DNA of 64,000 nt from Alphaproteobacteria bacterium (GTDB taxonomy: Bacteria > Pseudomonadota > Alphaproteobacteria > Rs-D84): assembly GCA_017522445.1 (NCBI GenBank), contig JAFWZK010000058.1, forward strand, positions 2,281 to 66,280, written 5' to 3'. Position 1 is the stretch's first letter. Each line of letters starts with the position of its first letter. This document shows, piece by piece, positions 24,457 through 39,076 of the stretch. Under the pieces are notes generated by a model. The model had not been told where the DNA came from. It searched no databases and was given only the letters and a program-made list of their open reading frames with translations. A program made the translations under genes and the position numbers.

Positions 24457-24484
24457 AAGAATATATTCCTTTGGTTATAAATAG

Positions 24485-24721: not shown

Positions 24722-24921
24722 GACTTGTCCCCCCTGCCCCGTGAAATCAGTGATTCTATCTGACGAACCAGGGCACGTTGGGATTCAAGCCAGCGCAACT
24801 CGTTATCTGTGGCGTTCGGCCCCAGGGTGCGAGAAATAGTTATTTTCCGCAGGTAATCCAATACCTGCCCACCCGATGGCGTGCCAAAACAACGGGCAAA
24901 ACTTTGTTCAATTTCTGTCAC
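24718..24921 (-). CDS. small conserved portal-adjacent phage protein (Bbp19-like pattern)
   Basis: FGTPSGGQVLDYLRKITISRTLGPNATDNELRWLESQRALV resembles, from memory, the small proteins encoded next to portals of BPP-1-like podoviruses. Confidence 0.45.
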   Translation of the reverse strand: MTEIEQSFARCFGTPSGGQVLDYLRKITISRTLGPNATDNELRWLESQRALVRQIESLISRGRGDKS

Positions 24922-26159
24922 AGCGCATCACCCCCCAGTACACTTTCAATTGCTGTCATCTGGGCAATCGGGGCAATGTATTTTAATTCTGCATCGCCAT
25001 TTAGCTGGATTGGTGCTATCAAACCGCGGCGTGCCAATATCTGTAATCCACGGTCGCATAATGGACGAATAAACTCGTGCAATAAACGGCCATAGGTCGC
25101 ACCCAATATTCGCATCATGTCTGCATTGCGGGCCATGATTTCAGTGGCGGTCATTTCTTTTTCAGACAGCAATCCCAATCGGTCCGCCAACATGGCATGA
25201 CGAATGCGTTCACGTAAATCTTTCAGTATTAACTGGGATACGTCAAAGTTGGCAGCACTGTTCAATGGGGTCAAACCTGTTGAACCCACCGCCTTGGGGA
25301 TAATCGCCCCAGGGGTCAGGTTGATATTGTTCAGGTTAATCACACCATCATCGTCTGCCTGCCAGATGCCGGTAACCGCAATAGTTGCATTTTTTAAAAC
25401 CAGTTCAACAACCTTGTTCGCGGTTTTTATGTCCGGTAATGCACGCAGTACAGGTCCACGACCGTATAACTCGCCAGATGCCAATGACCAACGAAAGATT
25501 ATGTATGGATTCGTTTCAAATGTGCCACGGGACACAATGTTGTTTTCCAGTTCCCCACCAACATCCAACCAGGCCGTGAATTCAGTACCAACCAAGCTTT
25601 GAACCAAATTTAATGGGGCGTTTGGATTCTGGGTTATCATGTCACGTATATTTGATGGTGGCGTCCAGGTGGGATAACGTTCCAGAACCTCGTACAGGGG
25701 GATGGATGTGGTATGAAAAACAGCATCCGGTAAAATCGCAATATCTGTCATAGGCACCGCTGTAAATGTAAAGGCAGAGGACGAACCAAGGGGGGCCTCG
25801 GCCATAAATAGGCATGCGGTGCCATTTATCACCAAATCCATATAGCACTGGTGTATCGTGGTGTAAAAATTGGAATCGTTCAAATTAGCACGCAAAACAG
25901 CGGTCGCAATGTCTGCGTTCTGGGACATTTCACTTTCGCCCACCAGTTGCAGCCATAATGATTCTGGCGGTGTCAGCAATGTATAAATAGATGCCGCCAG
26001 ATTGTCCGCCGCATCTGATGCCGTGGCATCGTACAGTGTGGCTGTGTCTGAATCTGTGGCAGGTATCGTATAACGACGGGCATCGTCCCAGCGTGTCAAC
26101 CAGGGGGAACGCATGTCCAATGCACGTTTATACAGGTTTTGCAGGTTGTTTGGTTGCAT
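24918..26159 (-). CDS. portal (head-to-tail connector) protein, T7 gp8-type
   Basis: 413 aa. The N-terminal pattern LYKRALDMRSPWLTRWDDARRYTIP...AADNLAASIYTLLTPP matches the podovirus connector family as I recall it. It lies directly downstream of the terminase. Confidence 0.7.
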   Translation of the reverse strand: MQPNNLQNLYKRALDMRSPWLTRWDDARRYTIPATDSDTATLYDATASDAADNLAASIYTLLTPPESLWLQLVGESEMSQNADIATAVLRANLNDSNFYTTIHQCYMDLVINGTACLFMAEAPLGSSSAFTFTAVPMTDIAILPDAVFHTTSIPLYEVLERYPTWTPPSNIRDMITQNPNAPLNLVQSLVGTEFTAWLDVGGELENNIVSRGTFETNPYIIFRWSLASGELYGRGPVLRALPDIKTANKVVELVLKNATIAVTGIWQADDDGVINLNNINLTPGAIIPKAVGSTGLTPLNSAANFDVSQLILKDLRERIRHAMLADRLGLLSEKEMTATEIMARNADMMRILGATYGRLLHEFIRPLCDRGLQILARRGLIAPIQLNGDAELKYIAPIAQMTAIESVLGGDAL

Positions 26160-26189
26160 AAAAAAACTCCTTTGTGTGTGTTTTGTTTG

Positions 26190-27059
26190 TTAAACCGTAA
26201 AGTTTGTGTTTGCAGAATATGTTGTAATGGCACGACCACTGGGACGTACAATAAATGGCGTGTGCGCTATTGCACCGGCAACCGCGTCCAGACCATCATC
26301 GTGCATGCCAGATACACCGGCCGGTGACCAACCCAACATTTCTGATAAAAATGGGGTCTGACGAATGCGCATGTGGGCGTGCAGGCGACCTGTTGATAAA
26401 ACGGGCTCGATTGCGGACAGGATGCGGTCCGATTTGCTGCGACTGTTCTGAATCTTTGTTATGCGTACAGTAAAACCACGAGTGGCAGCACAATTACGCA
26501 TAATCTCGGGCAAGCCGCCACCAATGCCGTTGGTTTCCAAAACCAGATTATGCAAATTGCGACGCGACATAAAATCTAATACCTGGTCACACTGGTGCGA
26601 CAAAGGATATTGGATGCCGTCCGATACTGTTAAATACAAAATGTCATCAATAAAAATATGACGACTGTTATCATCACGATACAACAATACACAGGCACTG
26701 TTGTCACGATTGCGGCGACCAGATGATGGGTCCCAATACAGCACATGACCCGTTATCGTAAAATCCCCAATACTTGCAGTTCGCGGATTAAACTCGTCAG
26801 AATAAAATATAAGCGAACCAGGATCCAGACGTGTTCGTTCGGGCGGTATAAATTCCAATAGCATCTGAGATGAAAAATGACGATGACCAACCAAAGTACG
26901 CATCTGTTCTATGCGGGCAGCAGAAAATAATTCAGGCCAGGCAGAGGTACCGTCCGCATTAACTAGCGGAATTTTCAGGACTTTGTACCCAGATAAAAAA
27001 GGCGTTGAAAAAGCATTTTTTTCATATACCATGGGCATAGAAGAAAAGGATTGTGACAT
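26190..27059 (-). CDS. terminase large subunit, C-terminal (nuclease) fragment
   Basis: WPELF..IEQMR...FSSQMLLEF, then WDPSSG...LETNGIGGG...MHDDGLDA (RNase-H-like nuclease signature). It lacks any Walker motif. A possible own start at ATG 27059 is preceded by AGGGG. Confidence 0.7.
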   Translation of the reverse strand: MSQSFSSMPMVYEKNAFSTPFLSGYKVLKIPLVNADGTSAWPELFSAARIEQMRTLVGHRHFSSQMLLEFIPPERTRLDPGSLIFYSDEFNPRTASIGDFTITGHVLYWDPSSGRRNRDNSACVLLYRDDNSRHIFIDDILYLTVSDGIQYPLSHQCDQVLDFMSRRNLHNLVLETNGIGGGLPEIMRNCAATRGFTVRITKIQNSRSKSDRILSAIEPVLSTGRLHAHMRIRQTPFLSEMLGWSPAGVSGMHDDGLDAVAGAIAHTPFIVRPSGRAITTYSANTNFTV

Positions 27060-28623
27060 GGATTTTACCCCTAAGACATTACCAACCAATTTAGAAGCAG
27101 AACAGGCCGTGTTGGCCGCTGTGTTGATGAAAAACCGCGCACTGGAACAGGTGGGTGAATTCCTGAATGCAAAACACTTTTCACACCCCGCACACCAAGA
27201 AATCTATCGGTTGGCGGAAAAACAATTCGCAGCAGGTATACCGTTTGATATTATTACCGCAAAAAACTATCTGGACCAACAGGGGGTTCTGGAATCAGTG
27301 GGCGGTGTTGAATACCTTAGCCAGCTGGCCAGTGCAGGCACAACAGTTGTAAATGTTGAACAATATGGACGAATAGTTTATGAAAATGCACTGCGACGCG
27401 ATTTAATCGCACTGGGCCAGGAAATCACAGACAAGGCATTCATAGAAGACCTGGATAATCCCGTGGCACGACAAATCGAAGCCGCAGAACAAAAACTGTT
27501 CGATATGGCAACCACAGGTGCATCAGAACGTGAAATTACATCTATTTCAAGTGCACTGGATGCCGCCATGGCCGAAGCAGAAATCGCATACAAGGCAGAT
27601 GGACAATTGTCTGGTTTAACAACTGGACTGAATGCACTGGATACATCAATCAGCGGTCTGCATCATTCTGACCTGATTATTATCGCAGGACGACCCGCAA
27701 TGGGAAAAACAACACTGGCAATGAATATCGCATTTAATGCAGCAAATGCAATCGCACATGGACGGGCCAATAAAAACTATACAGGGGCGGTCGTATTTTT
27801 CAGTCTGGAAATGTCCGCGTCCCAGCTGGCGGCACGTGTGCTGTCTTCGCAATCGCGGGTCAAGGCATCGTCTATGCGTGAAGGTACGCTGACCGATGAA
27901 GATTTCCTGAAAATGTCCCAGTATGCCGCAGCCATTTCCAAGGTGCCACTGTTCATAGATGATACCGCAGGTATGTCTGTGCCAATGATGCGTACACGGG
28001 TGCGGCGACTGGCCAGAAAACATGGTGGTATCGCATTGATTGTTATTGACTATTTACAATTGATGACATCACCCGGCGGTAAACACAATGATAATCGTGT
28101 CCAGGAAATTTCCGAGATTACACGTGGCCTTAAAATGCTGGCCAAAGAAATGGATGTGCCAGTTATCGCACTGTCTCAGTTATCGCGTAGCGTGGAATCA
28201 CGTGATGATAAACGACCAATGTTGTCAGATTTGCGTGAATCAGGTTCAATCGAACAGGACGCCGATATCGTTATGTTTACATATCGCGAAGAATACTATT
28301 TGCAAAACCGCGATCCAAATGAACGAATTTCAAATAATACCAACGATAAAATGCATGATTCTTGGCAAAACAGAATGGATCGTGCACGCGGCAAGGCCGA
28401 TATAATCATCGGTAAAAACCGCCATGGAAGACCCGAAACCGTCAGAACCGCTTTCTTTGGCGATTTCAGCTTGTTCGATAACCTGGAAGAGTTCGAGGCA
28501 CGCGGTGAAAACGAATACGCTCAGCCCGCCCCCACAATCTCGGCAGCCAGTCTGATGAACGAAGACGATGTAATGCCAACACCAATCGATGATGATGCAA
28601 TTCCAGATGATATGCCGTTGTAA
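27058..28623 (+). CDS. dnaB: replicative DNA helicase DnaB with an acidic C-terminal extension
   Basis: LPTNLEAEQAVLAAVLM N-terminal domain, GRPAMGKT Walker A and a RecA-like core ending DIIIGKNRHGRP. Start refined to MDFTPK (ATG 27058) behind AAAGGA. Confidence 0.92.
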   Translation: MDFTPKTLPTNLEAEQAVLAAVLMKNRALEQVGEFLNAKHFSHPAHQEIYRLAEKQFAAGIPFDIITAKNYLDQQGVLESVGGVEYLSQLASAGTTVVNVEQYGRIVYENALRRDLIALGQEITDKAFIEDLDNPVARQIEAAEQKLFDMATTGASEREITSISSALDAAMAEAEIAYKADGQLSGLTTGLNALDTSISGLHHSDLIIIAGRPAMGKTTLAMNIAFNAANAIAHGRANKNYTGAVVFFSLEMSASQLAARVLSSQSRVKASSMREGTLTDEDFLKMSQYAAAISKVPLFIDDTAGMSVPMMRTRVRRLARKHGGIALIVIDYLQLMTSPGGKHNDNRVQEISEITRGLKMLAKEMDVPVIALSQLSRSVESRDDKRPMLSDLRESGSIEQDADIVMFTYREEYYLQNRDPNERISNNTNDKMHDSWQNRMDRARGKADIIIGKNRHGRPETVRTAFFGDFSLFDNLEEFEARGENEYAQPAPTISAASLMNEDDVMPTPIDDDAIPDDMPL

Positions 28624-28695
28624 TTATTTTACTTGCACCATAATTAAAAATTGACTATTATTTTGTCAAGAAACAATAGTTTTAGGAGTTTTATT

Positions 28696-29703
28696 ATGGC
28701 CCAAGAAGAAATTATATTTCCAAATAATATACGCAATATTCGCCTGGCCAAGGGAATGAAAATGACCGACCTGGCCAGACGGGCAGATTTATCGTTGTCT
28801 GCGGTTTCTAAAATCGAAAAGGGTGTTCGCAGACTGAACCAAAAACAATTACTGCGTATCTGCAATATCTTGGGATGCAAGTTGTCCGATGTGTTTATCA
28901 AAGAATCTGATGCCGTCGCCGACCAATGGCAAAGCGAAATTAAACGCAGATTAAGCGACAATGAAAACAGCGGATTAAAAGTCTTTGGCAGCGGAATGCG
29001 TAAAATTCGCCAGCAGTCCGGAAAAACTATTGCACAGGCCGCAAAAGACGCAGGTATGACACTGTCTGTGTACCATAAAATCGAGGTTGGACAACGCGAA
29101 ATCTATAAAAATGAAATCGAACCGTTGGCGGCTTCGTTCGCAATGAAAACAGAAGAACTGTTCGATAAAATCGCAAACTTGTACAAATCCGGTGAATTGA
29201 ATAAACATATCAGCAAGGTCAAGGAACGTGTTAAATCTGTTCTGGTGCCGGGAAATCCGTTGTCGGGTATCGATATGCAGGGCAGTTTATATGGCGCAAA
29301 ACTGTATGACAGTGCACGTAAAAAACTGGTGCCAGTGTTCGGAACCCCGTCCGGTAAAGCAATCGCATTTAATAAATCTGACTCTGCAATGATTATCGCA
29401 CCATCCGAACTGGAAGGACGAAAAGGTATCTATGCCATTATGCCCAATACCAAAAGAATGGGGGGGATGATACCAGAAAAATCATACATCTTTGCAGATG
29501 CACTGACACAGGCAAAACCAGGTGATTTGGCCGTGTGTCTGGATGTGGACTTTGATACGCTGGGGACCGATGAAACCGTTAATGCACAAGTTGCAATCAT
29601 TAAACAGGATTCCAGGGGTAAAGTTCTGGGACACATCCTGGGGCCTGATGAAAAAATTACACCAAAAACAATGCACAAAGTTATTATGGTTGTCATGGAA
29701 TAA
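28696..29703 (+). CDS. transcriptional regulator with two XRE-type HTH domains and a degenerate S24/LexA-like C-terminal domain
   Basis: IRNIRLAKGMKMTDLARRADLSLSAVSKIEKG and MRKIRQQSGKTIAQAAKDAGMTLSVYHKIEVG. The C-terminus has a LexA-like fold pattern, with MGGM where GxSM is expected. Start refined to MAQEEI behind AGGAG. Confidence 0.75.
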   Translation: MAQEEIIFPNNIRNIRLAKGMKMTDLARRADLSLSAVSKIEKGVRRLNQKQLLRICNILGCKLSDVFIKESDAVADQWQSEIKRRLSDNENSGLKVFGSGMRKIRQQSGKTIAQAAKDAGMTLSVYHKIEVGQREIYKNEIEPLAASFAMKTEELFDKIANLYKSGELNKHISKVKERVKSVLVPGNPLSGIDMQGSLYGAKLYDSARKKLVPVFGTPSGKAIAFNKSDSAMIIAPSELEGRKGIYAIMPNTKRMGGMIPEKSYIFADALTQAKPGDLAVCLDVDFDTLGTDETVNAQVAIIKQDSRGKVLGHILGPDEKITPKTMHKVIMVVME

Positions 29704-29733
29704 TTCAAACAATATACCCAGAGAGAGAATACA

Positions 29734-30375
29734 ATGAATACAAAATCCAGTGCAACAGCATTAAAACTGTTAAATCTGTACCGCCAAGAACACGTTATAA
29801 TCGGCGGTTGGGCCGCCGTCAATCAGGTCTTTGTCGCACAGGCAAATGATGATGTTATCCGGGAACTGAAAAATATGCCAACAGGTAAATCACTGGTTCA
29901 ACACATAGAAAACCTGAGAAGCGGCAAAACACCAATGGATTCAATCGAACGTGATTTAATGCCATATGGCGGAATGATGCTGGATTCAACTGTGCCTTCA
30001 ATCAAACTGGATGATAATCAGTGGCAGGAACTGGAATATGGTATCGATAACTTTACACCAGATCAGGCAGGATTGGAAACCTTTACCGCACTGGGGGTGG
30101 TGCAAAAGTTCGGAACAGAATGGATTACCGCAATCGCAGATGCAATAAACCAAAAACCATACCTGCGAGATAAATGGAATATCATAACCCAGACATATAA
30201 TGCATATCGACTGTGGAATACAGCAAATGAAATTATCGCAACCCCAATTTCAGAACGCGTCCGCGGTCAGGTCCAGGCCGATATGCCAGAATACGAAACA
30301 TATCTGCCAATGTTCGGTGATGCGGGTATGCAATTGCTGGAAAAATTAAGAACCATTATCAGCAGTTTAAAATAG
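29734..30375 (+). CDS. hypothetical protein (213 aa)
   Basis: Intact ORF, last gene of the plus-strand insert. Its end overlaps the stop of the terminase ATPase fragment by 9 nt. No motif recognised. Confidence 0.5.
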   Translation: MNTKSSATALKLLNLYRQEHVIIGGWAAVNQVFVAQANDDVIRELKNMPTGKSLVQHIENLRSGKTPMDSIERDLMPYGGMMLDSTVPSIKLDDNQWQELEYGIDNFTPDQAGLETFTALGVVQKFGTEWITAIADAINQKPYLRDKWNIITQTYNAYRLWNTANEIIATPISERVRGQVQADMPEYETYLPMFGDAGMQLLEKLRTIISSLK

Positions 30376-30987
30376 TTCCCCCTGCCCCGTATCTGTGCGA
30401 TATATCGTATCGTGTGTGTGCGGTGTTCCTATGTATACCATGGCACCGGTGGGCGATAATATAAAATCCAGTTCACGTAATCGTTCACGCAGGTCTGCAC
30501 GCTTTTGCAGGGTGTTTGATGTGTTTGGAACCTCGACGTCATCACATATAATTAAATCTGCACGCATGCCAGTGATGTTGCCGTGTATGCCCTGGCATAT
30601 GACAGACGGCTCGCGGATGCCAATGGGGCGATTGACCGTTATTCGACCCATCGACCATTCTTTTTTATTCGATGGAACCAAATTGCTGCACCAGGGATGA
30701 TTTTCCAATATGTGACGAATGTGCGATACCATACGGGTCGACAACCCTGATTCCGCAGATAATATTAATATACGTGTTTGGGGATATAAATACAAAACAC
30801 AGGCCGCAAAAATCCCAACAACCGTGGATTTGCCCGAATGACGAAATGCCATCAGCAATCCACGATGCGGTGAATCACACAATACACCATACAGAAATTC
30901 CAATATCTGACGATGATGACGTGGCGTTTTTAACCCCAATACTCGATTCCATTCGTCCAAAAAATCATAAAATACCGTAATCATCAC
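30367..30987 (-). CDS. terminase large subunit, N-terminal (ATPase) fragment
   Basis: Walker A-like FRHSGKST, Walker B DLIICDD and the coupling motif IGTP. The stop comes 21 codons after IGTP. Confidence 0.75.
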   Translation of the reverse strand: MMITVFYDFLDEWNRVLGLKTPRHHRQILEFLYGVLCDSPHRGLLMAFRHSGKSTVVGIFAACVLYLYPQTRILILSAESGLSTRMVSHIRHILENHPWCSNLVPSNKKEWSMGRITVNRPIGIREPSVICQGIHGNITGMRADLIICDDVEVPNTSNTLQKRADLRERLRELDFILSPTGAMVYIGTPHTHDTIYRTDTGQGELF

Positions 30988-31516
30988 GATTTTCGTTCGG
31001 TGCAGGTTCTGTTATGACACCATAGTCATTTATCAATTTCGGCAACGCATTTTCCAATACACCCAACAGATTTCTGTACAACCCCATTACCGACCCGCCC
31101 GATAATTTGTCATTTATTACAGAATGGGTATAGTCAATTAACGATTTAATGTTATCATGACGGTTCGCCCATTGCGATAAATCAATGTTGACCGAATGTA
31201 AATCCTGGAATGCAGATAACAAAAAGTTAAAGTCAGAGTTTAAATCTTCGGGATCTATTTGGGCCGTTGGCTGATAGTCAATCGTACGTGATAATGATAT
31301 TTGTCTGAAAATGTCCAGACGTGTGCCTGTTTCCGGGGCAATATCAAAAACAACATTGCCACCAGAAAAATCAGAGTTTGGTATCACAGTAAAATTAGCC
31401 CCGTGATTATCTAAAACCTCGTTTATCGCAACGCAAATGTCCGCGACCTGAAAAAACGGAAAGGAAAATGCAAACTCGGTCGTCGTGCCGTCCGCAATAT
31501 AAGATATTTTGTACAT
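30965..31516 (-). CDS. tail-fibre adaptor protein with a T7 gp17 N-terminal-like domain
   Basis: YIADGTTTEFAFSFPFFQVADICVAIN...IDYQPTAQIDPEDLNSDFNFLLSAFQDL follows the Y..DG....F.IPF...V pattern of podovirus fibre N-termini. Confidence 0.55.
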   Translation of the reverse strand: MYKISYIADGTTTEFAFSFPFFQVADICVAINEVLDNHGANFTVIPNSDFSGGNVVFDIAPETGTRLDIFRQISLSRTIDYQPTAQIDPEDLNSDFNFLLSAFQDLHSVNIDLSQWANRHDNIKSLIDYTHSVINDKLSGGSVMGLYRNLLGVLENALPKLINDYGVITEPAPNENRDDYGIL

Positions 31517-31539
31517 ATTTATACCCCCATGACCTGTTC

Positions 31540-31887
31540 CTAGCCAACCAAATCATCAAATCTGGATAAAATTGATCGCAGCAAGTTTGGCTTTTTAGCA
31601 GTACTTTGTTTTAACTTTTTCAAATTATTACGACGTTTTTCTTCGTATGGGGCCGCGGTTTCAGAACGCAAACGTTCCAATACGCGACCGGCGGTCATGC
31701 CTGATGCAGATACACCAGACGAACCATACTTGGCGCGCTGGGCGGCCAAGACTTTTTTCACCAGATTCGTCTTTTCTGTGTTATCTGTCGCCATCTGGGC
31801 AAGAATTTCTTTGCGTTGGCTTTTTGCCTGCTTCTTGGCATCTTTATAGTCCAAGATTTCTGTCACATCTGATACAAGTTGTCCCAT
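31540..31887 (-). CDS. small basic virion-associated-type protein, unknown function
   Basis: 115 aa, Lys/Arg-rich and predicted helical. It sits between tail genes. Confidence 0.4.
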   Translation of the reverse strand: MGQLVSDVTEILDYKDAKKQAKSQRKEILAQMATDNTEKTNLVKKVLAAQRAKYGSSGVSASGMTAGRVLERLRSETAAPYEEKRRNNLKKLKQSTAKKPNLLRSILSRFDDLVG

Positions 31888-31950
31888 GTGTTTTCCTTTG
31901 CTTTGTTTGATTTGTTTTATGTGTTATTAAAATTGTTGGCACAATGATAA

Positions 31951-33666
31951 CTAGATCATGTACCAGCCATGTAAACTGACCGATAAAACAGTCAGCGGAT
32001 ATGATTCTGTACCGTGAATTGTCCATGGCGGGCGTATACAGTCATGTGCTGTACCCAATAAATTCAGCGAAACATCACCACTGAAACCAGGTGAATCCGC
32101 GGCATATATCACATTAGGTAAACTGATGCGTTGATTGTTAATGTGTAATGATTTGGAATCCAATAATCGGGCAACCAGTTTTCTTAACCGTATCCGACGT
32201 GGATTATGCCCCGATGCCCGCAACGGTAAACCAGAGGCAATATATGCAAAACTGAACGTGCCACAATCGTCCTGACAATCTGAATCAAAGTATTCCAGAC
32301 TGATTACCCCTGAACGCTTGACCGCGACGTATGTGCGACCATCTGTAACCGCAACCGATAAAAAATCGCCCGCTGTGCGGTATGTGCACCATGCAGAAAT
32401 ACCAACCGATGAATTCTGGTTTAAAACGGCCATAATACCATCTGAACGAACAATGTACAGTCTGCGTTCAGTCGCGTTATAGCACATGTCAACAGGAACC
32501 TGCATCAGGTGCTTGGCCATAACAGATAAATCATTGGCGTTATAGTTTTCACCTAACTCGTCCAGCCCCAGTTCGCGCAAATCACAACCACTGGCGGAAA
32601 TAAAGATTGTCGAACCTTCGATTTTCTGGGGTGGCAAATATCGCGATGTGTACGAGCCAACTGATGTGTGCTGCTTGATATCAACAGACGATGGGGTCAG
32701 CGGTTTGCTGGATATCGCCCATTCGCCCGCATTCGTCAATATCTGCAAATTTTCACTGCTGACCAGGGTGCAAATCTGTTGACGCTGTTGCGATAATAAT
32801 GATATGAAAATCGCTTCGTCATCCAGGCCTGTGCCACCGTCAAAATTGTTGTGACGCCCAACCTGGGACATCCAAATGCCCGCAGGCCAATCGCGCGAAC
32901 CACCAAATACCAATCTGTCCTGGTGAAATGTGATACTGCGGGGCCATCCACGGCGGGAACCAAAGGCCGCCTCGGACCAAGATGATACCGGGGATGATGG
33001 TAATGAATACGAACCGTTTGTGTGGGCAACAATCTGGGTGGAAGATATATATTCCGCAACCGTCCATTGGCGATCCAATAAATACAGCCGACCATTTACA
33101 TTATCAGGTGTCCAAAAATCACGATTGGTCGTAAATGTCGCATAATTATTGCCAGAACTGTTGGCTGTGACGGTTATCGTAATGTCCGATGCATCATCAA
33201 AGCGAACAAACGGTATGTTCAGCGTCATGTCCGAATCATTGCGGGAAAATGTAAAGTCCGAAATGTAAAATCTGTCCGGATGTTTGACCAGCGTCTGGGG
33301 ACAATGGTCAGGATGAACAAATATCATCGTACCAAAACGCTGGGCATACTGCAGATTGGATAAATCTGCAACTGACCATGGTGTTATCAAATCCTGGACC
33401 AAATCGCCCCCCAGATATATGTCCATGTGAAAATCCGTCAGGGCAAGCAAATATTCCGCACCGTCCGATACCGAAAATGATATCAGGCGTGCTTGCCCAA
33501 CCAAATTGTCAATGTGACGCAACCCATAACGACGCGATAAACCACCACCAGATATAACATTCATATTCTCTAAACGGGACAGACCATTTATATTATCACT
33601 GGTGTAAAATTCTGGGGCAACTTCGCCGTTTGCAAACGAGTTTTGTGTCTTTATAAAATCTGTCAT
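31951..33666 (-). CDS. large tail protein (tail tubular protein B / nozzle-like)
   Basis: 571 aa directly after the tubular-A-like gene. The N-terminus FANGEVAPEFYTSDNINGLSRLENMNVISGGGLSRRYG resembles podovirus tail-tube/stabilisation proteins as I recall them. Confidence 0.5.
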   Translation of the reverse strand: MTDFIKTQNSFANGEVAPEFYTSDNINGLSRLENMNVISGGGLSRRYGLRHIDNLVGQARLISFSVSDGAEYLLALTDFHMDIYLGGDLVQDLITPWSVADLSNLQYAQRFGTMIFVHPDHCPQTLVKHPDRFYISDFTFSRNDSDMTLNIPFVRFDDASDITITVTANSSGNNYATFTTNRDFWTPDNVNGRLYLLDRQWTVAEYISSTQIVAHTNGSYSLPSSPVSSWSEAAFGSRRGWPRSITFHQDRLVFGGSRDWPAGIWMSQVGRHNNFDGGTGLDDEAIFISLLSQQRQQICTLVSSENLQILTNAGEWAISSKPLTPSSVDIKQHTSVGSYTSRYLPPQKIEGSTIFISASGCDLRELGLDELGENYNANDLSVMAKHLMQVPVDMCYNATERRLYIVRSDGIMAVLNQNSSVGISAWCTYRTAGDFLSVAVTDGRTYVAVKRSGVISLEYFDSDCQDDCGTFSFAYIASGLPLRASGHNPRRIRLRKLVARLLDSKSLHINNQRISLPNVIYAADSPGFSGDVSLNLLGTAHDCIRPPWTIHGTESYPLTVLSVSLHGWYMI

Positions 33667-33691
33667 TTGTTGTTTTCCCTTTGGTAAATTG

Positions 33692-34210
33692 TCAAAAACG
33701 GCTGGTGATTAATGAAAAGTCAGTCAAACACGAAGGGGCAGATGTTGTGCTGTCCAGATATTTTGCAGTCTGTAATTCCGTTTCATACAACGCCGCCAAC
33801 ATGCGAAATACCGTTTGATCACCCAACAAGGGAATACAAAATTCCATCGCCAAACGCGTCACCGCCAATGATATAAAATAACTGGGGAACTGTTCCGGTG
33901 ATACACGCCGAAGAACAACAACAGACACACTGTCTGAATCAGATATAATCCGATTGCCTGTAATATCACCGTCCGAACGTAATACACGCAATACATCCGA
34001 TGGAATCAAAAAATCGCCATCTGTATTGCGAACCAAATCCAATTGGGCCGTCGCAAAACGCCATGGATGCAGCGATATCAAAGAATCTGTGATAACATCA
34101 AACAATGTACGTGAAAGTTTGGCGGCCGCACTGTCGTCCGTCAATGACTGGATTGGCTGTTCCCCCAGTTTTAACAGTGCCATAGAACATAAATCTATTT
34201 TGGTTAGCAT
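33692..34210 (-). CDS. tail tubular protein A / head-tail adaptor-like
   Basis: MLTKIDLCSMALLKLGEQPIQSLTDDSAAAKLSRTLFDVITDSLISLHPWRFA matches the widespread podovirus pattern (..AL..LG...I.SL.D.S..A......Y......LL....W.FA). Confidence 0.55.
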   Translation of the reverse strand: MLTKIDLCSMALLKLGEQPIQSLTDDSAAAKLSRTLFDVITDSLISLHPWRFATAQLDLVRNTDGDFLIPSDVLRVLRSDGDITGNRIISDSDSVSVVVLRRVSPEQFPSYFISLAVTRLAMEFCIPLLGDQTVFRMLAALYETELQTAKYLDSTTSAPSCLTDFSLITSRF

Positions 34211-34287
34211 TTTTTGACCCTTTGGTTATGTTATGAATAAAATTGGGCCGAAATTAATCGGCCCGAACATAAGAAAATAAAAAACAT

Positions 34288-34521
34288 TTATGCCAATGCA
34301 ACCGTAGTCACATTTAATTCAGTGATATTAATTCTTTTAATCGCCGTGTTGTCAGATGCGTTAATAATTACAATATCACCAATGTTCATCAGCGTTTTTA
34401 CACCATTAAAATACCCGTTCGCAGTAATAGTAGACATCGTTTCAGATGCACTGCAATAGTGCCACAATGTAAAACCATTTGCATATGCAATCACGGATAA
34501 GTTTTTGTTCTGAAATGCCAT
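34288..34521 (-). CDS. small phage protein downstream of the capsid gene (possible decoration/accessory head protein)
   Basis: MAFQNKNLSVIAYANGFTLWHY... Start refined to ATG 34521 behind AAAGGA. Function unknown. Confidence 0.45.
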   Translation of the reverse strand: MAFQNKNLSVIAYANGFTLWHYCSASETMSTITANGYFNGVKTLMNIGDIVIINASDNTAIKRINITELNVTTVALA

Positions 34522-34556
34522 TTGTGTTTTCCTTTTGGTTAATGATGATATTAATT

Positions 34557-35384
34557 TTATGCGCTCAAAGAATCTGAACATTTAACGCGAACAATACCTG
34601 TGTCGTCTATTAACACCGCACCCTGAGACATGCTGTTGCTGATAAAGTGGGCAGCACGCTCTCCGTGCCATGAAATGTCAGTCTTGACATCCTGACCACA
34701 GGCATGACCAATGCTGGACGCATGATAGATAAAGCAGTCACGATTTGTACCCGATACGGGCAAACCATTGTGCAGAACCCATGTAATGCCCAACCATTTG
34801 CGGGCAATACCACCATTTAACAACGGGGCAGTATTACCAACATAATCCGCCGAGACAAACTCGTCCAGCGACAACAGCTCGTTCCACTGGTGTACGCCAA
34901 CAACTGCAAAGCGGCGGCCATCATCTGGAACGTCGTTTGTATTTAATACCTCGACTGCAGATAAAATCAATTCTTTGGTCAGCCCTGTTGAATAATCCCC
35001 AACTGTTGCCGTTGCATCATTCATTGCCGAGATAATCAATTCATCTGTTTTACGCCCCAATGCGTATGCACCCGCAGATGCAACAACACGACGTTCGTCT
35101 ATGTTCGTTTTTAATTCATCCAATGCGTCAACCCAATCGCCCGCATAGTAATCCATCAGCATGCATTCAACAGGTTCATGATTTAAATTCATAACAGGTA
35201 CAATGCCATGACGTGATTTTGTGCTGGCTGTGCCACGCCCAACCTTTTGAAACGTGGTAGATGCACCAATTACACCAGATTTACTGCGAACAGTTGAACG
35301 CAGTTTCGTGCCCATTTGCTGGTACGCCAAATGAACATCCGCTTCGAATTGTTTCACAAATACATTATCTATGGAAACAGACAT
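34557..35384 (-). CDS. major capsid protein
   Basis: 275 aa downstream of the scaffold-like gene. VFVKQFEADVHLAYQQMGTKLRSTV...GRKTDELIISAM resembles podovirus capsid proteins as I recall them. Confidence 0.6.
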   Translation of the reverse strand: MSVSIDNVFVKQFEADVHLAYQQMGTKLRSTVRSKSGVIGASTTFQKVGRGTASTKSRHGIVPVMNLNHEPVECMLMDYYAGDWVDALDELKTNIDERRVVASAGAYALGRKTDELIISAMNDATATVGDYSTGLTKELILSAVEVLNTNDVPDDGRRFAVVGVHQWNELLSLDEFVSADYVGNTAPLLNGGIARKWLGITWVLHNGLPVSGTNRDCFIYHASSIGHACGQDVKTDISWHGERAAHFISNSMSQGAVLIDDTGIVRVKCSDSLSA

Positions 35385-35592
35385 ACAATAATCCTTTTGG
35401 TTAAGTAAAAATTAAATTGCAGTATTTATAAAATAAACACTGCAGGTGTATTTTGTGTTCTGGTTATGCATAACTGCGCCATAAAACAAAAAAGGTTATT
35501 TCGGGTTCACACCAATGTGTGAATTGTCCGATAAAAAATGAAAGAAAAAATATCAGTCAGACTGTGCACGTTAATCTGACTGATACTGATTC

Positions 35593-35615
35593 AAAAAAAC
35601 CCCGCAATCGCGGGG
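35593..35615 (-). terminator. intrinsic terminator after the Lys/Ala-repeat gene
   Basis: On the minus strand: CCCCGC-GATT-GCGGGG followed by TTTTTTT. Confidence 0.7.
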
Positions 35616-35623
35616 AATATTTA

Positions 35624-36100
35624 TTATTTTTTCTTGCACACTTTCTTGGCAACAGGTTTTTTTGCAACCGGTTTTTTAATTGCGGCTTTTTTTACAACTG
35701 GTTTTTTCACCGCAACTTTTTTTGCAGGTGCAGCTTTCTTTGCGACTGGTTTTTTCACCGCAACTTTTTTCGCAGGTGCAGCTTTCTTTGCAACTGGTTT
35801 TTTCACCGCAACTTTTTTCGCAGGTGCAACTTTCTTTGCAACTGGTTTTTTTACCGCAACTTTTTTCGCAGGTGCAACTTTCTTTGCAACTGGTTTTTTC
35901 ACCGCAACTTTTTTCGCAGGTGCAGCTTTCTTTGCGACTGGTTTTTTCACCGCAACTTTTTTCGCAGGTGCAGCTTTCTTTGCAGCCGGTTTTTTCACTG
36001 CAACTTTTTTCGCAGGTGCAGCTTTCTTTGCGACTGGTTTTTTTTCTTCTGCTTTTTTGACCGCTTCTTTTTTGCGTATTCTTAAAAATGGAAATGCCAT
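35624..36100 (-). CDS. Lys/Ala/Pro-repeat, histone H1-like basic protein
   Basis: 158 aa made almost entirely of KKPVAKKAAPAKKVAV units. Own RBS (AAGGAGAG) and terminator. The three plus-strand ORFs over the same DNA are repeat artefacts. Confidence 0.7.
   Translation of the reverse strand: MAFPFLRIRKKEAVKKAEEKKPVAKKAAPAKKVAVKKPAAKKAAPAKKVAVKKPVAKKAAPAKKVAVKKPVAKKVAPAKKVAVKKPVAKKVAPAKKVAVKKPVAKKAAPAKKVAVKKPVAKKAAPAKKVAVKKPVVKKAAIKKPVAKKPVAKKVCKKK
35697..36032. repeat. tandem repeat, 7 x 48 bp, in frame
   Basis: Unit ACTGGTTTTTTCACCGCAACTTTTTTCGCAGGTGCAGCTTTCTTTGCA starts at 35697, 35745, 35793, 35841, 35889, 35937 and 35985, with only point differences. Degenerate partial copies lie on both sides. 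Confidence 0.95.
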
Positions 36101-36211
36101 TCTTCTCTCCTTCTAGGTGTTTTGTTTGAATAGAACAAATCCGTTTTGTTCTTGGTTTCTATTTTATCATGAAACATGAAACCGAGTAAAGCAGAAAAGT
36201 AATTTTTTTCA

Positions 36212-36868
36212 TCATGAATATAATTTTTTAAATCCATTTTCTATTTTACGTATGTATTCAACATCGTTATCACGCCAGTATTTTGGGTCACGCATCATAC
36301 GACGTAAATCAGAATCTGTCAGATTGTCGGATGCAGAGTTTTCCGTATGAACATTTGGTTCCATTGATTGCATCATTTTGTAAATGCTTTGTATTCCCTG
36401 GGGTGTAGAACATAACTCGGTAAATGCATCGTGTGGTAAAAATCGTTCACCAAATGTGTTTATTTCACGTAATGCATGTTGCATTTTTTCATTTCCACCA
36501 AAAAAATTCTGCAGCTGAGTTATTGCATTGCTTTCATCCTGGACAGAAAATATTTCTGATATCAATGGTGATAAAAATTCGTTCGCAATGTTATAAATTT
36601 CAGAAACCTGATTACAAGTTAACCCTAGGTCAAAAAATTTCTGACGCAACATTTCATCATCGTATAGTTCATTTGTTGGATACTCGGACGCAGATGATGG
36701 GACGCCAATTGCACGATTAAACTTTTGACGTGTTTCATCGTCTGCATCGGCCGATGGAATTGATACCATACCACCAATCTTTTTTTCTAATTCTTTGTAC
36801 GAACGTACCAACGCGTCTGTATTCAACGTACCATCATTGTTTAAAAATTTTTCTGGGATATTATCCAT
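36212..36868 (-). CDS. scaffolding protein-like
   Basis: MDNIPEKFLNNDGTLNTDALVRSYKELEKKIGG resembles the N-termini of phage scaffolding/capsid-assembly proteins. It is helical and acidic and lies upstream of the capsid gene. Start refined to ATG 36868. Confidence 0.5.
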   Translation of the reverse strand: MDNIPEKFLNNDGTLNTDALVRSYKELEKKIGGMVSIPSADADDETRQKFNRAIGVPSSASEYPTNELYDDEMLRQKFFDLGLTCNQVSEIYNIANEFLSPLISEIFSVQDESNAITQLQNFFGGNEKMQHALREINTFGERFLPHDAFTELCSTPQGIQSIYKMMQSMEPNVHTENSASDNLTDSDLRRMMRDPKYWRDNDVEYIRKIENGFKKLYS

Positions 36869-37058
36869 TATCTTTTCCTTTGGTTTCATTTGAACGGCGT
36901 AAAAAATAAATTCCAGCCAATGTGAATATTGCCTGCAACATTGTAAACAGATCTGTGTCACCAACCAGGTATGCCCCCAGTGCCGATACAATACCAGTTG
37001 CAGAAATTATATATGTTCGATACCCAGACAGATATCCACCACGTATAAACTTGCGCAT
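36861..37058 (-). CDS. holin-like small membrane protein (two TM segments)
   Basis: MRKFIRGGYLSGYRTYIISATGIVSALGAYLVG..LQAIFTLAGIYFLRR with a charged C-terminus, directly after the cell-wall hydrolase gene. Confidence 0.45.
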   Translation of the reverse strand: MRKFIRGGYLSGYRTYIISATGIVSALGAYLVGDTDLFTMLQAIFTLAGIYFLRRSNETKGKDNG

Positions 37059-37074
37059 ACTGTGCACCCCGCGA

Positions 37075-37485
37075 CTAAAGATAAAACAGTACATTGTCTA
37101 TGTCCGCAATGTATCCACGTGCAATCGCCCAGTCGGGTAATATATCGGCGTGATGAAATGCGGTCGCACCATTACAACAATCAGGTAACATACCAGATAA
37201 CATTCGCTTTGCCGTGCGAACACACATCTGAAAATGACGCGAATCCGCAGGAACAGTTAATCGTTCGTGATGCGGAGAACTTTCGTCCAGTACAGAAAAA
37301 ATTTTCATGTCACGAATTATTTCATGCATTGAACGGTTCGTCTTGATGGACAGGTTCCTTATCATCGTGGTCATTGCTTCGACCAACCGCAGCGACGTGC
37401 CACCTGTTTGTGCATAAACAACACGTGCAATCTGATACGCCAATGATGCAGATGCATCCGGATTCGGTATAATAGTTAACTGCAT
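37075..37485 (-). CDS. cell wall hydrolase (SleB/Hydrolase_2-like)
   Basis: LAYQIARVVYAQTGG...VEAMTTMIRN...NGATAFHHADILPDWA...FY follows the SleB-family pattern. Confidence 0.6.
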   Translation of the reverse strand: MQLTIIPNPDASASLAYQIARVVYAQTGGTSLRLVEAMTTMIRNLSIKTNRSMHEIIRDMKIFSVLDESSPHHERLTVPADSRHFQMCVRTAKRMLSGMLPDCCNGATAFHHADILPDWAIARGYIADIDNVLFYL

Positions 37486-37512
37486 TGCAATACCTTTTTA
37501 TGTCTGAGTATG

Positions 37513-37537
37513 AAAAAACCACGTGATGGACACGTGG
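37513..37537 (-). terminator. leader terminator 2 upstream of the phage-like cluster
   Basis: On the minus strand: CCACGTG-TCCAT-CACGTGG then TTTTTTC. Confidence 0.6.
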
Positions 37538-37541
37538 AAAT

Positions 37542-37568
37542 AAAAAAACGCCACAACCTTTGTTGTGG
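37542..37568 (-). terminator. leader terminator 1 upstream of the phage-like cluster
   Basis: On the minus strand: CCACAAC-AAAG-GTTGTGG then CGTTTTTTT. Confidence 0.6.
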
Positions 37569-37595
37569 ACACAATCTTTGCTGTTTATGTCGTGC

Positions 37596-37624
37596 AGTAT
37601 ACCATATTTTCAGCACAAAGTCAA
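37596..37624 (-). promoter_or_regulatory. sigma70-type promoter of the phage-like cluster
   Basis: On the minus strand: TTGACT, a 17-nt spacer, then TATACT. Confidence 0.55.
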
Positions 37625-37635
37625 GAACTTTTTTT

Positions 37636-37662
37636 AAAAAACGCGATTTTCCGCGTTTTTTT
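37636..37662. terminator. bidirectional terminator after birA
   Basis: AAAAAACGCG-ATTTTC-CGCGTTTTTTT. Confidence 0.6.
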
Positions 37663-38830: not shown

Positions 38831-39076
38831 CTAATCACGTTCGGTGGCCGACTGTTCTATGAACTTGGTAAAGTCTTGGATGCGGGCACCTGTGGACGAT
38901 AAAATTTTAGAAATACTGTTGGTCGATGGCCAACGTGGCTGTCCTTCTTTGGACCAACGCTTGCTTTTGTTAAATGTGGTCGGGTCCAGCCCACTGCATT
39001 TGGCCAACCCAGAACAGGACATCCCATGCTCGGTGGCAAACTTTTCTATTGCACGCCAGACATCATCATGTGTCAT
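38831..39076 (-). CDS. small HTH DNA-binding protein (phage-repressor N-terminal-domain type, no S24 domain)
   Basis: MSCSGLAKCSGLDPTTFNKSKRWSKEGQPRWPSTNSISKIL resembles the N-terminal domain of alphaproteobacterial S24-family repressors. Confidence 0.6.
   Translation of the reverse strand: MTHDDVWRAIEKFATEHGMSCSGLAKCSGLDPTTFNKSKRWSKEGQPRWPSTNSISKILSSTGARIQDFTKFIEQSATERD

What the first reader, a model, noticed from the sequence alone, without database searches (positions are those of the whole stretch)
35624..36100. Histone-H1-like Lys/Ala/Pro repeat protein encoded by a 7 x 48-bp tandem array inside the head-assembly module
Seen:
- The 158-aa protein is almost entirely KKPVAKKAAPAKKVAV units.
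- The DNA repeats are near-identical 48-mers (35697-36032), in frame.
- The gene has its own strong RBS and its own terminator.
- It sits between the scaffold-like and capsid-like genes.

Established: AKP/KA-repeat proteins (Hc1/Hc2, AlgP, PhaF C-terminus, BpH1) bind and condense DNA non-specifically. Perfect tandem repeats change copy number by slippage or recombination.

Inference: it could be a packaged DNA-condensing or charge-neutralising protein for a small capsid, or a moron-like nucleoid protein. The repeat number is likely to vary between strains.
Basis: partly seen in the sequence, partly recalled or inferred. Interest (0 to 1): 0.6.

Follow-up and report, generated by a model that had tools for sequence, protein, structure and literature searches.

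The report
Histone-like lysine-repeat gene inside tamed phage
A small, extremely lysine-rich repeat protein of the bacterial "histone H1-like" kind is encoded as a self-contained gene wedged between the scaffold and capsid genes of a tamed phage cluster found throughout a group of tiny-genome gut bacteria. It most likely acts as a general DNA-coating protein of the cell, not as a part needed to build the capsid.

Summary
ORF 35624-36100 (-) encodes a 158-aa, net +58 protein with seven in-frame 48-bp units, a strong RBS and its own terminator. It lies between a T7-type scaffold gene and a capsid gene.

The window comes from a Candidatus Enterousia / order Rs-D84 gut alphaproteobacterium (genomes under 1 Mb). 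The phage genes form a vertically inherited podovirus-derived head-tail cluster kept in more than 200 loci.

The lysine-repeat gene sits in the same slot in all 135 loci that have it and enough upstream DNA. It carries a conserved sigma-70-type promoter, a 5' palindrome, an AGGAG RBS and a terminator. Protein length runs from 68 to 164 aa and repeat period from 15 to 174 bp.

Free phage relatives have no gene in this slot, and a sister lineage has a membrane-protein gene there.

Four metatranscriptomes cover this gene and almost nothing else in a 10.8-kb orthologous locus.

Best reading (about 0.5): a moron-like, independently expressed, Hc2/AlgP-type disordered polycation that binds and condenses DNA in the cell. 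A packaged, protamine-like role (about 0.2) is not excluded.

The gene is a new member of a known kind. The surrounding cluster is the more novel object.

The parts
35624..36100 (-). Coding sequence of the 158-aa Lys/Ala/Pro/Val repeat protein (here called KAP). It has an N-terminal MAFPFLRIRKK helix, seven 16-aa units and a C-terminal ...KKVCKKK.
   Evidence: Pfam HC2 58.4 bits against a cutoff of 40. AlphaFold2 gives a helix at residues 4-19 and no fold for the rest (pLDDT about 56, pTM 0.16). The orthologue occupies the same position in 135 loci.
35681..36043 (-). In-frame tandem array, period 48 bp, 7.6 copies (seven full units at 35708-36043).
   Evidence: TRF score 635, 94% matches. In other species the period is 15-174 bp, always a multiple of 3.
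36161..36190 (-). Sigma-70-type promoter of the KAP gene: TTTACT, 18 nt spacer, TAAAAT, with TG before the -10 hexamer.
   Evidence: The hexamers are conserved and the spacer sequence varies; the pattern is present in 130 of 135 loci.
36132..36152 (-). Invariant palindrome AGAACAAA-N5-TTTGTTCT at the start of the 5' UTR. It could be a stabilising 5' hairpin or an operator.
   Evidence: Unique in the window, with 0 expected by chance. Present in 134 of 135 loci. As RNA it forms an 8-bp hairpin.
36105..36112 (-). Shine-Dalgarno sequence AAGGAGAG.
   Evidence: AGGAG is present in 135 of 135 loci.
35593..35615 (-). Intrinsic terminator t1 (CCCCGCGATTGCGGGG followed by T7) directly after the stop codon.
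   Evidence: A hairpin with a T run lies within 70 nt of the stop in 135 of 135 loci. In run X43, an RNA contig over the orthologous locus L142 ends just after the equivalent terminator there.
35549..35587 (-). Second hairpin (t2): the sequence-conserved inverted repeat ATCAGTCAGAT-N-GTCTGACTGAT followed by a T run. It could be a back-up terminator, a regulator binding site, or both.
   Evidence: Present in about 59% of loci by a strict pattern.
35418..35481 (-). Capsid leader: conserved TGGCGCA..GCATAACCAGAA motif followed by a hairpin with a T run just before the capsid RBS.
   Evidence: The core motif CATAAMCAGMA has only two exact matches in the window, here and in the hydrolase leader.
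34557..35384 (-). Major capsid protein gene, the downstream neighbour.
   Evidence: Pfam PF19821 E = 4e-72 and phrog_3437. Median 85% (all loci) to 90% (genome set) amino-acid identity to the window across loci.
36212..36991 (-). Scaffold (T7 capsid-assembly-like) gene, the upstream neighbour. The true start is probably at 36868. The protein is acidic (pI 4.7, net -13).
   Evidence: Pfam PF05396 and phrog_3742; charge.
37519..37624 (-). Leader of the hydrolase-holin-scaffold operon: near-consensus promoter, CATAAACAGCA motif and two intrinsic terminators.
   Evidence: (105 loci, covarying stems).

Best explanation
The gene encodes an intrinsically disordered polycation of the bacterial histone H1-like kind (Hc2, AlgP, BpH1 type). 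It has a short N-terminal helix, a tail of AKKxx-type repeats carrying +24 to +60 net charge, and usually one to three cysteines before a terminal KKK.

Shown:
- It is a self-contained transcription unit with its own sigma-70-type promoter, 5' hairpin or palindrome, strong RBS and one or two terminators.
- It lies at the scaffold-capsid junction of a vertically inherited, podovirus-derived head-tail cluster in Rs-D84 / Ca. Enterousia bacteria. In free phage relatives this junction holds no gene.

Inferred:
- It was acquired after domestication, like a moron.
- It is transcribed from its own promoter independently of, and often more strongly than, the particle genes.
- It binds DNA, and possibly RNA, non-specifically through its lysines, neutralising charge and compacting the nucleoid of these cells with very small genomes.
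- When the cluster is switched on by read-through of its terminators, the gene would also be transcribed with the head genes, so a secondary presence in particles is possible.
- The array expands, contracts and homogenises by slippage or unequal recombination. Selection acts only on frame, composition and approximate length.
For: - Composition and family: K 37%, net +58. Pfam HC2 is above its threshold and NCBIfam hist_H1_lk_Burk scores 79 against 80. The only database relatives are K/A/P tails fused to HU, SWIB, DksA and RsfS, that is, nucleoid or ribosome proteins.
- Structure: no fold beyond helix 4-19.
- Autonomous unit: in 135 loci the promoter is present in 96%, the palindrome in 99%, the RBS in 100% and the terminator in 100%. 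Its 5' region lacks the CATAAMCAGMA-plus-terminator leader that the hydrolase and capsid operons share.
- Not ancestral to the phage module: scaffold is followed directly by capsid in Pelagibacter phage Hodr and in viral contig L126. No PHROG family matches the protein.
- Not required by the cluster: L121 and L131 keep birA-hydrolase-scaffold-capsid but have a 188-aa membrane-protein gene in the slot.
- Expression: runs X42-45 are RNA, since they hold gap contigs at up to about 1400x depth. Within the 10.8-kb orthologous locus L142 they cover the KAP gene and, besides it, a single 162-nt contig in one run. The KAP coverage includes its unique 5' and 3' ends. KAP-like contigs at depth 17-33 occur in pig-gut metatranscriptome X36, against depth 2-5 for capsid-like contigs.
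- Repeat dynamics: length 68-164 aa, period 15-174 bp, within-array identity 66-98%, mostly 80% or more.
Against: - No direct evidence of DNA binding or of cellular location.
- The gene has kept its place between scaffold and capsid across all 135 loci that carry it. This would also fit a particle role, although the whole region from HTH81 to portal is equally syntenic.
- In runs X35 and X36, capsid and tail-tube transcripts of an L142-like strain were found at 93% identity or more, but KAP transcripts were not. KAP is therefore not always the dominant transcript.
- Repeated k-mers inflate contig depth, and Logan contigs are a poor measure of expression.
- The conserved N-terminal MAFxF helix and the C-terminal cysteines have no assigned role in a nucleoid model. 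They could be a targeting signal and a crosslinking signal.
- Whether these genomes lack other nucleoid proteins could not be checked.
Confidence: 0.5

Rival explanations
1. Packaged, protamine-like internal protein. KAP is loaded into procapsids, for example through its N-terminal helix or by binding the acidic scaffold. It stays with the DNA and neutralises part of its charge in the domesticated particle. The C-terminal cysteines crosslink it outside the cell.
For: - Invariant position between scaffold and capsid in all 135 KAP-bearing loci with enough upstream DNA.
- Conserved N-terminal helix and C-terminal Cys in 70% of orthologues.
- The scaffold is acidic (net -13) and KAP is +58.
- Terminators inside the cluster and the promoter-plus-double-terminator leader suggest antitermination, which would co-transcribe KAP with the head genes.
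- The cluster lacks T7-type internal core genes, so other internal proteins could be used.
Against: - Absent from the free phage relatives and from all PHROGs.
- A sister lineage keeps the cluster without it.
- It has its own promoter and lacks the leader motif shared by the structural operons.
- RNA covers KAP and almost nothing else in four samples, and structural genes without KAP in two others.
- No prohead protease or known targeting signal was found.
- Full neutralisation of about 35 kb would need roughly 1,200 copies (about 19 MDa). That figure is my own arithmetic.
Confidence: 0.2
2. A cellular polyanion binder whose target is not the chromosome. It could silence RNA or ribosomes, as Hc1 is reported to repress translation. 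Alternatively it could bind polyphosphate or extracellular DNA.
For: - The same kind of tail is fused to RsfS (ribosome silencing factor) and DksA in other bacteria.
- It is a disordered polycation.
- Expression is independent of the particle genes.
Against: - Most fusions are to DNA-binding HU and SWIB domains.
- There is no signal peptide for an extracellular role (sequence).
- Nothing specific points to RNA.
Confidence: 0.1
3. An assembly or regulation accessory of the cluster. It could be a scaffold-binding chaperone that times scaffold release, or a silencer that coats the AT-rich cluster DNA and keeps it off.
For: - Opposite charges of KAP and scaffold.
- Location in the head-assembly module.
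- Conserved operator-like palindromes around the gene.
Against: - Assembly works without it in phage relatives and in the L121 lineage.
- There is no evidence of sequence-specific binding.
Confidence: 0.08
4. Not a real protein gene: an ORF created by a DNA repeat, or a real product encoded on the other strand.
For: The antisense frame is open in 62 of 62 orthologues, and two long ORFs lie on the + strand.
Against: - The antisense frame is open by construction from AAR/GCN/CCN/GTN codons.
- Promoter, RBS, ATG and terminators all face the KAP frame and are conserved in 96-100% of 135 loci.
- The N and C termini are conserved while the repeat DNA differs.
- All periods are multiples of 3.
Confidence: 0.02

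Closest known systems
Chlamydia trachomatis Hc2 (hctB), histone H1-like protein
   Same: - A Lys/Ala-rich protein built almost wholly of short lysine-rich repeats.
- Size varies through different numbers of intragenic repeat elements (165-237 aa in Hc2; PMC2848022).
- The Pfam HC2 model matches above its threshold.
   Different: - The NCBIfam Hc2 model is far below its cutoff (45 against 135), so this is not an orthologue.
- The host is an alphaproteobacterium, not a Chlamydia.
- It has its own N-terminal MAFxF helix and a C-terminal Cys-Lys motif.
- It is embedded in a phage-derived cluster.
- No developmental cycle is known for the host.
Burkholderia/Bordetella-type histone H1-like proteins (NCBIfam NF038053; BpH1) and Pseudomonas AlgP
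   Same: - A stand-alone K/A/P repeat protein of similar size.
- Scores 79 bits against a cutoff of 80.
- These proteins are known, from my own knowledge, to bind DNA non-specifically, and in Bordetella to vary in repeat number.
   Different: - The score is just below the family cutoff and the similarity is compositional.
- The genomic context is different.
Morons of lambdoid prophages (Juhala and Hendrix concept; for example lambda bor/lom and HK97 gene 15)
   Same: - A single gene with its own promoter and terminator.
- It lies between two structural genes that are adjacent in related phages.
- It can be expressed while the structural genes are off.
   Different: - The carrier here is not a prophage but an apparently fixed, vertically inherited cluster.
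- The unit is conserved across all 135 KAP-bearing loci examined, from many species, rather than being sporadic.
- The product is a nucleoid-type polycation, not a membrane or virulence factor.
Packaged DNA-associated basic proteins of viruses (T4 internal proteins IPI-III, adenovirus VII/mu, baculovirus P6.9)
   Same: Small, very basic proteins encoded among or near head genes that travel with the DNA. They are the model for the rival explanation.
   Different: - No capsid-targeting sequence or prohead protease was found.
- No homologue exists in phage families.
- Presence in particles is untested.

Membership tests
Pfam HC2 (PF07382), histone H1-like nucleoprotein | Whole-protein score at or above the gathering threshold. 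| tested here: met
   58.4 bits against 40, E = 1.4e-15, residues 6-158. The match is to a low-complexity model, so it shows shared composition and repeat type, not common descent.
NCBIfam NF038052, Hc2 (chlamydial) | Score at or above the curated cutoff. | tested here: not met
   45.4 bits against 135.
NCBIfam NF038053, hist_H1_lk_Burk | Score at or above the curated cutoff. | tested here: not met
   79.0 bits against 80, borderline.
Bacterial histone H1-like K/A/P repeat proteins (functional class) | More than 30% Lys, Ala/Pro-rich short repeats, no globular domain. | tested here: met
   K 37%; K+A+V+P make up 92% of residues. The 62 orthologues have K 32-39%. AlphaFold2 shows only helix 4-19, with the rest at pLDDT about 56.
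Bacterial histone H1-like K/A/P repeat proteins (functional class) | Non-specific DNA binding and compaction. | not testable with these tools
   Needs EMSA, microscopy or expression in E. coli.
Bacterial histone H1-like K/A/P repeat proteins (functional class) | Intragenic repeat number varies among strains or species (as in hctB and bpH1). | tested here: met
   Between species: 68-164 aa and periods of 15-174 bp. Within the species there is only a hint: repeat unitigs 35818-35891 are present in runs X1 and X2 but absent from X3 and X4.
Hc1 (HctA, Pfam PF07432) | Conserved folded N-terminal domain followed by a K/A tail. | tested here: not met
   No PF07432 hit in the Pfam scan. Only one 16-residue helix is predicted.
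Moron (autonomous gene unit in a phage structural operon) | Own promoter and own terminator flanking a single gene. | tested here: met
   Promoter in 96% and terminator in 100% of 135 loci, with variable spacer sequence. This is in silico only.
Moron (autonomous gene unit in a phage structural operon) | The flanking genes are adjacent in related phages. | tested here: met
   Scaffold is followed directly by capsid in Pelagibacter phage Hodr and in L126.
Moron (autonomous gene unit in a phage structural operon) | Expressed when the structural genes are silent. | tested here: inconclusive
   Runs X42-45 cover the KAP gene and one other 162-nt contig within 10.8 kb. These are assembled contigs without strand information, and repeat k-mers inflate depth. 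Runs X35 and X36 show the opposite pattern at high stringency.
Packaged internal head proteins (T4 IP-like) | Present inside particles; targeting signal processed by a prohead protease. | not testable with these tools
   No protease gene was found in the cluster. Particle proteomics is needed.
Gene transfer agent / viriform (context of the gene) | Phage-derived structural cluster inherited vertically under purifying selection, without replication or integration genes. | tested here: met
   Same gene order in all loci long enough to show it. Capsid identity of 85-90% exceeds that of DnaB, PriA and BirA. Divergence of structural genes correlates with that of housekeeping neighbours (Spearman 0.6-0.8). 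No integrase or phage polymerase lies in the cluster.
Gene transfer agent / viriform (context of the gene) | Particles package and transfer host DNA. | not testable with these tools
   Needs particle isolation and sequencing.

The most novel reading that the evidence does not exclude
Rs-D84 / Ca. Enterousia bacteria carry a previously undescribed, podovirus-derived gene-transfer-agent-like particle system. KAP is its protamine-like cargo: a histone-like polycation loaded into a tailed-phage-type capsid to condense the packaged DNA, crosslinked through its C-terminal cysteines. This would be the first histone-like DNA condensation inside a Caudoviricetes-derived capsid.
Probability: 0.15. Interest if true: 0.8.

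Novelty: new member of a known kind. Interest (0 to 1): 0.45.

Why it matters
Histone H1-like repeat proteins are among the few bacterial proteins that compact DNA purely by charge. They have been studied in only a handful of pathogens. Here one is a fixed feature across a large sample of an uncultured group of gut bacteria with genomes under 1 Mb, where every retained gene is likely to be used.

The set gives a natural series of over 130 orthologues. They differ in repeat unit, copy number and charge but keep the same termini and regulatory signals. That is useful material for asking what is actually selected in such proteins.

Its location also draws attention to a larger object: a conserved, podovirus-type head-tail cluster with a split terminase and terminator-rich leaders. 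I found no description of it in the searchable literature. If particles are made, this would be a new type of domesticated phage element, and the KAP gene would be either its passenger or its cargo.

Tried and rejected
- Homologue search with the KAP protein returned only compositional matches: K/A/P tails on HU, SWIB, DksA and RsfS. It did not even return the Enterousia orthologues, so orthology was established by synteny instead.
- Exact look-up of four KAP sequences in the protein collection found nothing. The gene is probably uncalled, or called with another start, in public MAGs.
- PHROGs and PADLOC gave no match for KAP. Rfam gave nothing significant around it.
- ORF openness as evidence for the frame was rejected, because the antisense frame is always open by composition.
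- I considered a sigma-54 promoter and a CtrA box in the capsid leader. Both were rejected: the spacing of TGGCGC..GCAT varies between species, and the TTAA-N7-TTAAC match in the window is not conserved.
- I considered a LexA-type box for the 5' palindrome. It was rejected because GAAC-N13-GTTC fits no known SOS box (my own knowledge).
- Strain-level copy number from short-read unitigs could not be resolved, because contigs break in the array.
- RNA runs at 80% identity on the window could not be interpreted. Conserved genes map preferentially, and three of the four runs (X26, X27, X30) are not confirmed RNA; X26 and X27 hold contigs of 50-110 kb.
- The literature search found no report of a phage-like cluster, GTA or histone-like protein in Enterousia or Rs-D84.

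Full report
**1. The observation**

ORF 35624-36100 on the minus strand encodes a 158-aa protein. It has 59 Lys, 41 Ala, 28 Val and 18 Pro, net charge +58 and pI 11.2. Seven consecutive 16-aa units KKP[VA]AKK[AV]APAKKVAV make up 112 of the 158 residues.

Tandem Repeats Finder reports one array at 35681-36043: period 48, 7.6 copies, 94% matches, no indels, score 635. It is by far the strongest array in the window.

The ATG is preceded by AAGGAGAG. The stop is followed at once by CCCCGCGATTGCGGGG and a T7 run. A second strong hairpin follows, and together the two fold at -33 kcal/mol with z = -8.

The upstream gene matches the T7 capsid-assembly (scaffold) family. The downstream gene matches Phage_capsid_2 and phrog_3437.

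**2. Where the window comes from and what surrounds the gene**

The capsid protein has relatives in 228 GTDB species-representative genomes. The 80 best, at 86-98% identity, were retrieved. All are gut MAGs labelled Candidatus Enterousia or uncultured Alphaproteobacteria. Enterousia belongs to order Rs-D84, whose genomes are about 0.75-1.0 Mb (PMC12306168).

The phage-like genes span about 23.9-37.6 kb. On the minus strand, in order, they are:
- cell-wall hydrolase
- a small membrane protein
- scaffold
- KAP
- capsid
- a 97-aa protein
- tail tubular A-like and B-like proteins
- a 115-aa basic protein
- the N-terminal domain of a T7-type tail fibre
- a terminase ATPase ORF
- three opposite-strand genes (unknown 213 aa, a double-HTH regulator, dnaB)
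- a terminase nuclease ORF
- portal
- an Mtd_N/H-lectin tail protein

Everything else examined in the window is housekeeping: recG, RNase PH, RNase E/G, glycosyltransferases, birA, priA, miaA, gap and lpxI.

The gene order from HTH81 to portal is the same in all loci long enough to show it. Capsid identity to the window is 85% (median over all loci) to 90% (the 80 genome loci). That is higher than for DnaB (82%), PriA (76%) or BirA (62-72%). Divergence of the structural genes tracks that of housekeeping neighbours (Spearman 0.6-0.8).

This is a vertically inherited, selected, phage-derived cluster and not a prophage. The closest free phages are 32-37 kb podoviruses: Pelagibacter phage Hodr at 45% identity, and HTVC010P-type and Vibrio phages at about 33%.

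**3. The KAP gene in relatives**

A Lys/Ala/Pro/Val ORF lies 190-270 bp upstream of the capsid gene in every genome, viral-collection or metagenome locus that has enough upstream DNA and a capsid at least 76.8% identical to the window's. The exception is one small lineage described below.

Many MAG contigs end inside the repeat. This explains why the gene is poorly represented in protein databases.

In 135 loci the following are conserved:

| Feature | Share of 135 loci |
|---|---|
| Promoter TTTACT-N16-19-[TA]AnAAT | 96% |
| Palindrome GAACAAA-N-TTTGTTC just downstream of the -10 | 99% |
| AGGAG RBS | 100% |
| Hairpin plus T run within 70 nt of the stop | 100% |
| N-terminus M-x-[FL]-x-[FL] | 99% |
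| C-terminal K[KR]K | 99% |
| At least one Cys in the last 16 residues | 70% |

The promoter hexamers are conserved while the spacer sequence varies, which is the footprint of a real promoter.

The repeat region itself is not conserved. Protein length ranges from 68 to 164 aa. The best-scoring repeat period per species ranges from 15 to 174 bp and is always a multiple of three. Identity within each array is 66-98%, mostly 80% or more. The arrays are therefore repeatedly rebuilt and homogenised. Selection acts on frame, composition and rough length.

Within the window's own species, short-read unitigs break in the array. The variant units at 35818-35891 are present in two runs and absent from two others. 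This hints at strain differences but gives no copy count.

**4. Is the gene part of the ancestral head module?**

No. In Pelagibacter phage Hodr and in viral contig L126 (capsid 49% identical) the scaffold gene is followed directly by the capsid gene. The 64%-identity phage contigs L122-124 also have no such gene upstream of the capsid gene. No PHROG family matches KAP.

In L121 and L131 (capsids 76-77% identical to the window's) a 188-aa multi-pass membrane protein with no family match occupies the slot; L121, the longer locus, also shows the same birA-hydrolase-scaffold neighbourhood. In L121 it sits behind a TTTACT -35 element at the same place after the scaffold stop. In L120 the same gene is inverted.

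The scaffold-capsid junction is thus an insertion slot, and the cluster can exist without KAP.

**5. Regulation**

The operon that starts with the hydrolase has three conserved elements in 105 loci: a near-consensus promoter (CTTGACTTT...TGATACAAT), then the motif CATAAACAGCA, then two intrinsic terminators whose stems covary.

The capsid gene has its own leader with the related motif CATAACCAGAA, followed by a hairpin with a T run. These two leaders hold the only exact matches to CATAAMCAGMA in the window.

A promoter followed by terminators is the layout of operons controlled by antitermination. This is an inference from lambda-type late operons and the Caulobacter GTA (PMC11150451, listed; read as abstract only).

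The KAP 5' region has neither the motif nor a leader terminator. It has its own palindrome, which is unique in the window. KAP is insulated from the capsid gene by t1 and t2. KAP is therefore wired differently from the structural genes, although read-through from the scaffold gene would include it.

**6. RNA evidence (weak but informative)**

Runs X42-45 behave as metatranscriptomes. They hold short gap contigs from many bacteria at depths up to about 1400.

On the 10.8-kb orthologous locus L142 they cover the KAP gene in all four runs. The coverage includes its unique 5' end (4439-4497) and its 3' end up to just past terminator t1 (to 4818). The only other hit is one 162-nt contig.

In pig-gut metatranscriptomes X35 and X36, contigs at least 93% identical cover HTH81, the capsid 3' half, the tail-tube genes and the 115-aa gene, but not KAP. 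At 80% identity, KAP-like contigs of related species appear at depth 17-33, against 2-15 for capsid-like contigs.

Caveats: these are assembled contigs without strand information; repeated k-mers inflate depth; and depth 0 does not prove absence. Taken together the data show three things. The cluster is transcribed in vivo. KAP is transcribed. The two are not tightly coupled.

**7. What the protein is**

Pfam HC2 matches above its threshold (58 bits against 40). NCBIfam's Burkholderia-type histone H1-like model scores 79 against 80, and the chlamydial Hc2 model 45 against 135. A database search returns only K/A/P tails attached to HU, SWIB, DksA or RsfS. AlphaFold2 without an alignment predicts one helix (residues 4-19, pLDDT 74-83) and no fold for the rest (pTM 0.16).

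KAP belongs to the compositional class of bacterial histone H1-like proteins. It is not an orthologue of any named member.

**8. Mechanism and weights**

*Shown:*
- an autonomous, conserved transcription unit encoding a disordered polycation
- insertion at a junction that holds no gene in phages
- rapid repeat turnover
- transcription in gut samples

*Inferred:*
- Non-specific electrostatic binding and compaction of DNA in the cell, as established for Hc1/Hc2, AlgP and BpH1. This is from my own knowledge; Hc2 repeat variation is from PMC2848022.
- Independent expression of the moron type.

I put about 0.5 on this reading. The packaged, protamine-like role gets about 0.2. The invariant position, the N-terminal helix, the C-terminal cysteines and the acidic scaffold (net -13) keep it alive. 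The phage comparison, the sister lineage, the separate wiring and the RNA pattern weigh against it. Other polyanion targets such as RNA, ribosomes or polyphosphate get about 0.1. An assembly or silencing accessory gets about 0.08. A non-gene artefact gets about 0.02.

**9. Novelty**

The protein is a new member of a known kind. Its conserved termini, its fixed place in a domesticated phage cluster and the series of over 130 natural variants are new details.

The cluster itself has order-wide conservation in bacteria with genomes under 1 Mb, a terminase split by dnaB, and terminator-rich leaders. It appears undescribed in the searchable literature and is the more interesting object.

Noticed in passing
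window 23965-37660 (loci L001-L210): A podovirus-type (T7/HTVC010P-like) head-tail-lysis cluster is conserved in gene order in over 200 loci of Rs-D84 / Ca. Enterousia bacteria, whose genomes are under 1 Mb. Its capsid is more conserved than DnaB, PriA or BirA, and its divergence tracks that of housekeeping neighbours. No integrase, polymerase or T7-type internal core genes are present. It is a candidate new GTA-like domesticated element, and I found no paper describing it.
   Followed up: partly
window 26190-27089 (-) and 30367-30987 (-), with 26911-30375 (+) between them: The large terminase is split into an ATPase ORF (Walker A RHSGKST, Walker B LIICDD) and a nuclease ORF. They are separated by 3.3 kb holding dnaB, a double-HTH regulator and an unknown 213-aa gene on the other strand. 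Both halves and the insert are conserved in about 70 species (TerL_N 80% and TerL_C 65% median identity).
   Followed up: partly
window 37519-37624 (-): The leader of the hydrolase operon has a near-consensus extended -10 promoter followed by two intrinsic terminators with covarying stems. It is conserved in 105 loci. This layout suggests control by antitermination.
   Followed up: partly
window 35458-35468 (-) and 37579-37589 (-): The motif CATAAMCAGMA has exactly two perfect matches in the 64 kb. Each lies in a leader (capsid and hydrolase) just upstream of terminator-like hairpins, and both are conserved across species. It may be a shared regulatory or antiterminator loading site.
   Followed up: partly
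window 35549-35587 (-): The inverted repeat ATCAGTCAGAT..GTCTGACTGAT between KAP and capsid keeps its stem sequence across species, unlike ordinary terminators. It may be a binding site for one of the conserved HTH regulators, for example the 81-aa HTH at 38831-39076, which is 89-90% identical across species.
   Followed up: no
L121 2121-2687 (+); L131 1-200; L120 1-870 (-): In a sister lineage the scaffold-capsid slot holds a 188-aa multi-pass membrane protein with no Pfam, PHROG, NCBIfam or PADLOC match. In L120 the gene is inverted.
   Followed up: partly
L142 1264-1730 and 5562-8993 (runs X35, X36): Pig-gut metatranscriptome contigs 95-99% identical to an Enterousia locus cover the HTH81 regulator, the capsid, the tail tube and the 115-aa gene. 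They do not cover birA, hydrolase or scaffold. The particle genes therefore seem to be transcribed in vivo.
   Followed up: partly
window 23965-24456 (-): A 163-aa protein downstream of portal combines an Mtd_N domain (major tropism determinant N-terminus, as in Bordetella phage BPP-1) with an H-type lectin domain. It is a likely receptor-binding tail protein of the cluster. The T7-type fibre gene (30965-31516) retains only its N-terminal domain.
   Followed up: no
window 35600-35615: Terminator t1 is scored as terminator-like on both strands, so it could also stop any antisense transcription coming from the capsid side.
   Followed up: no
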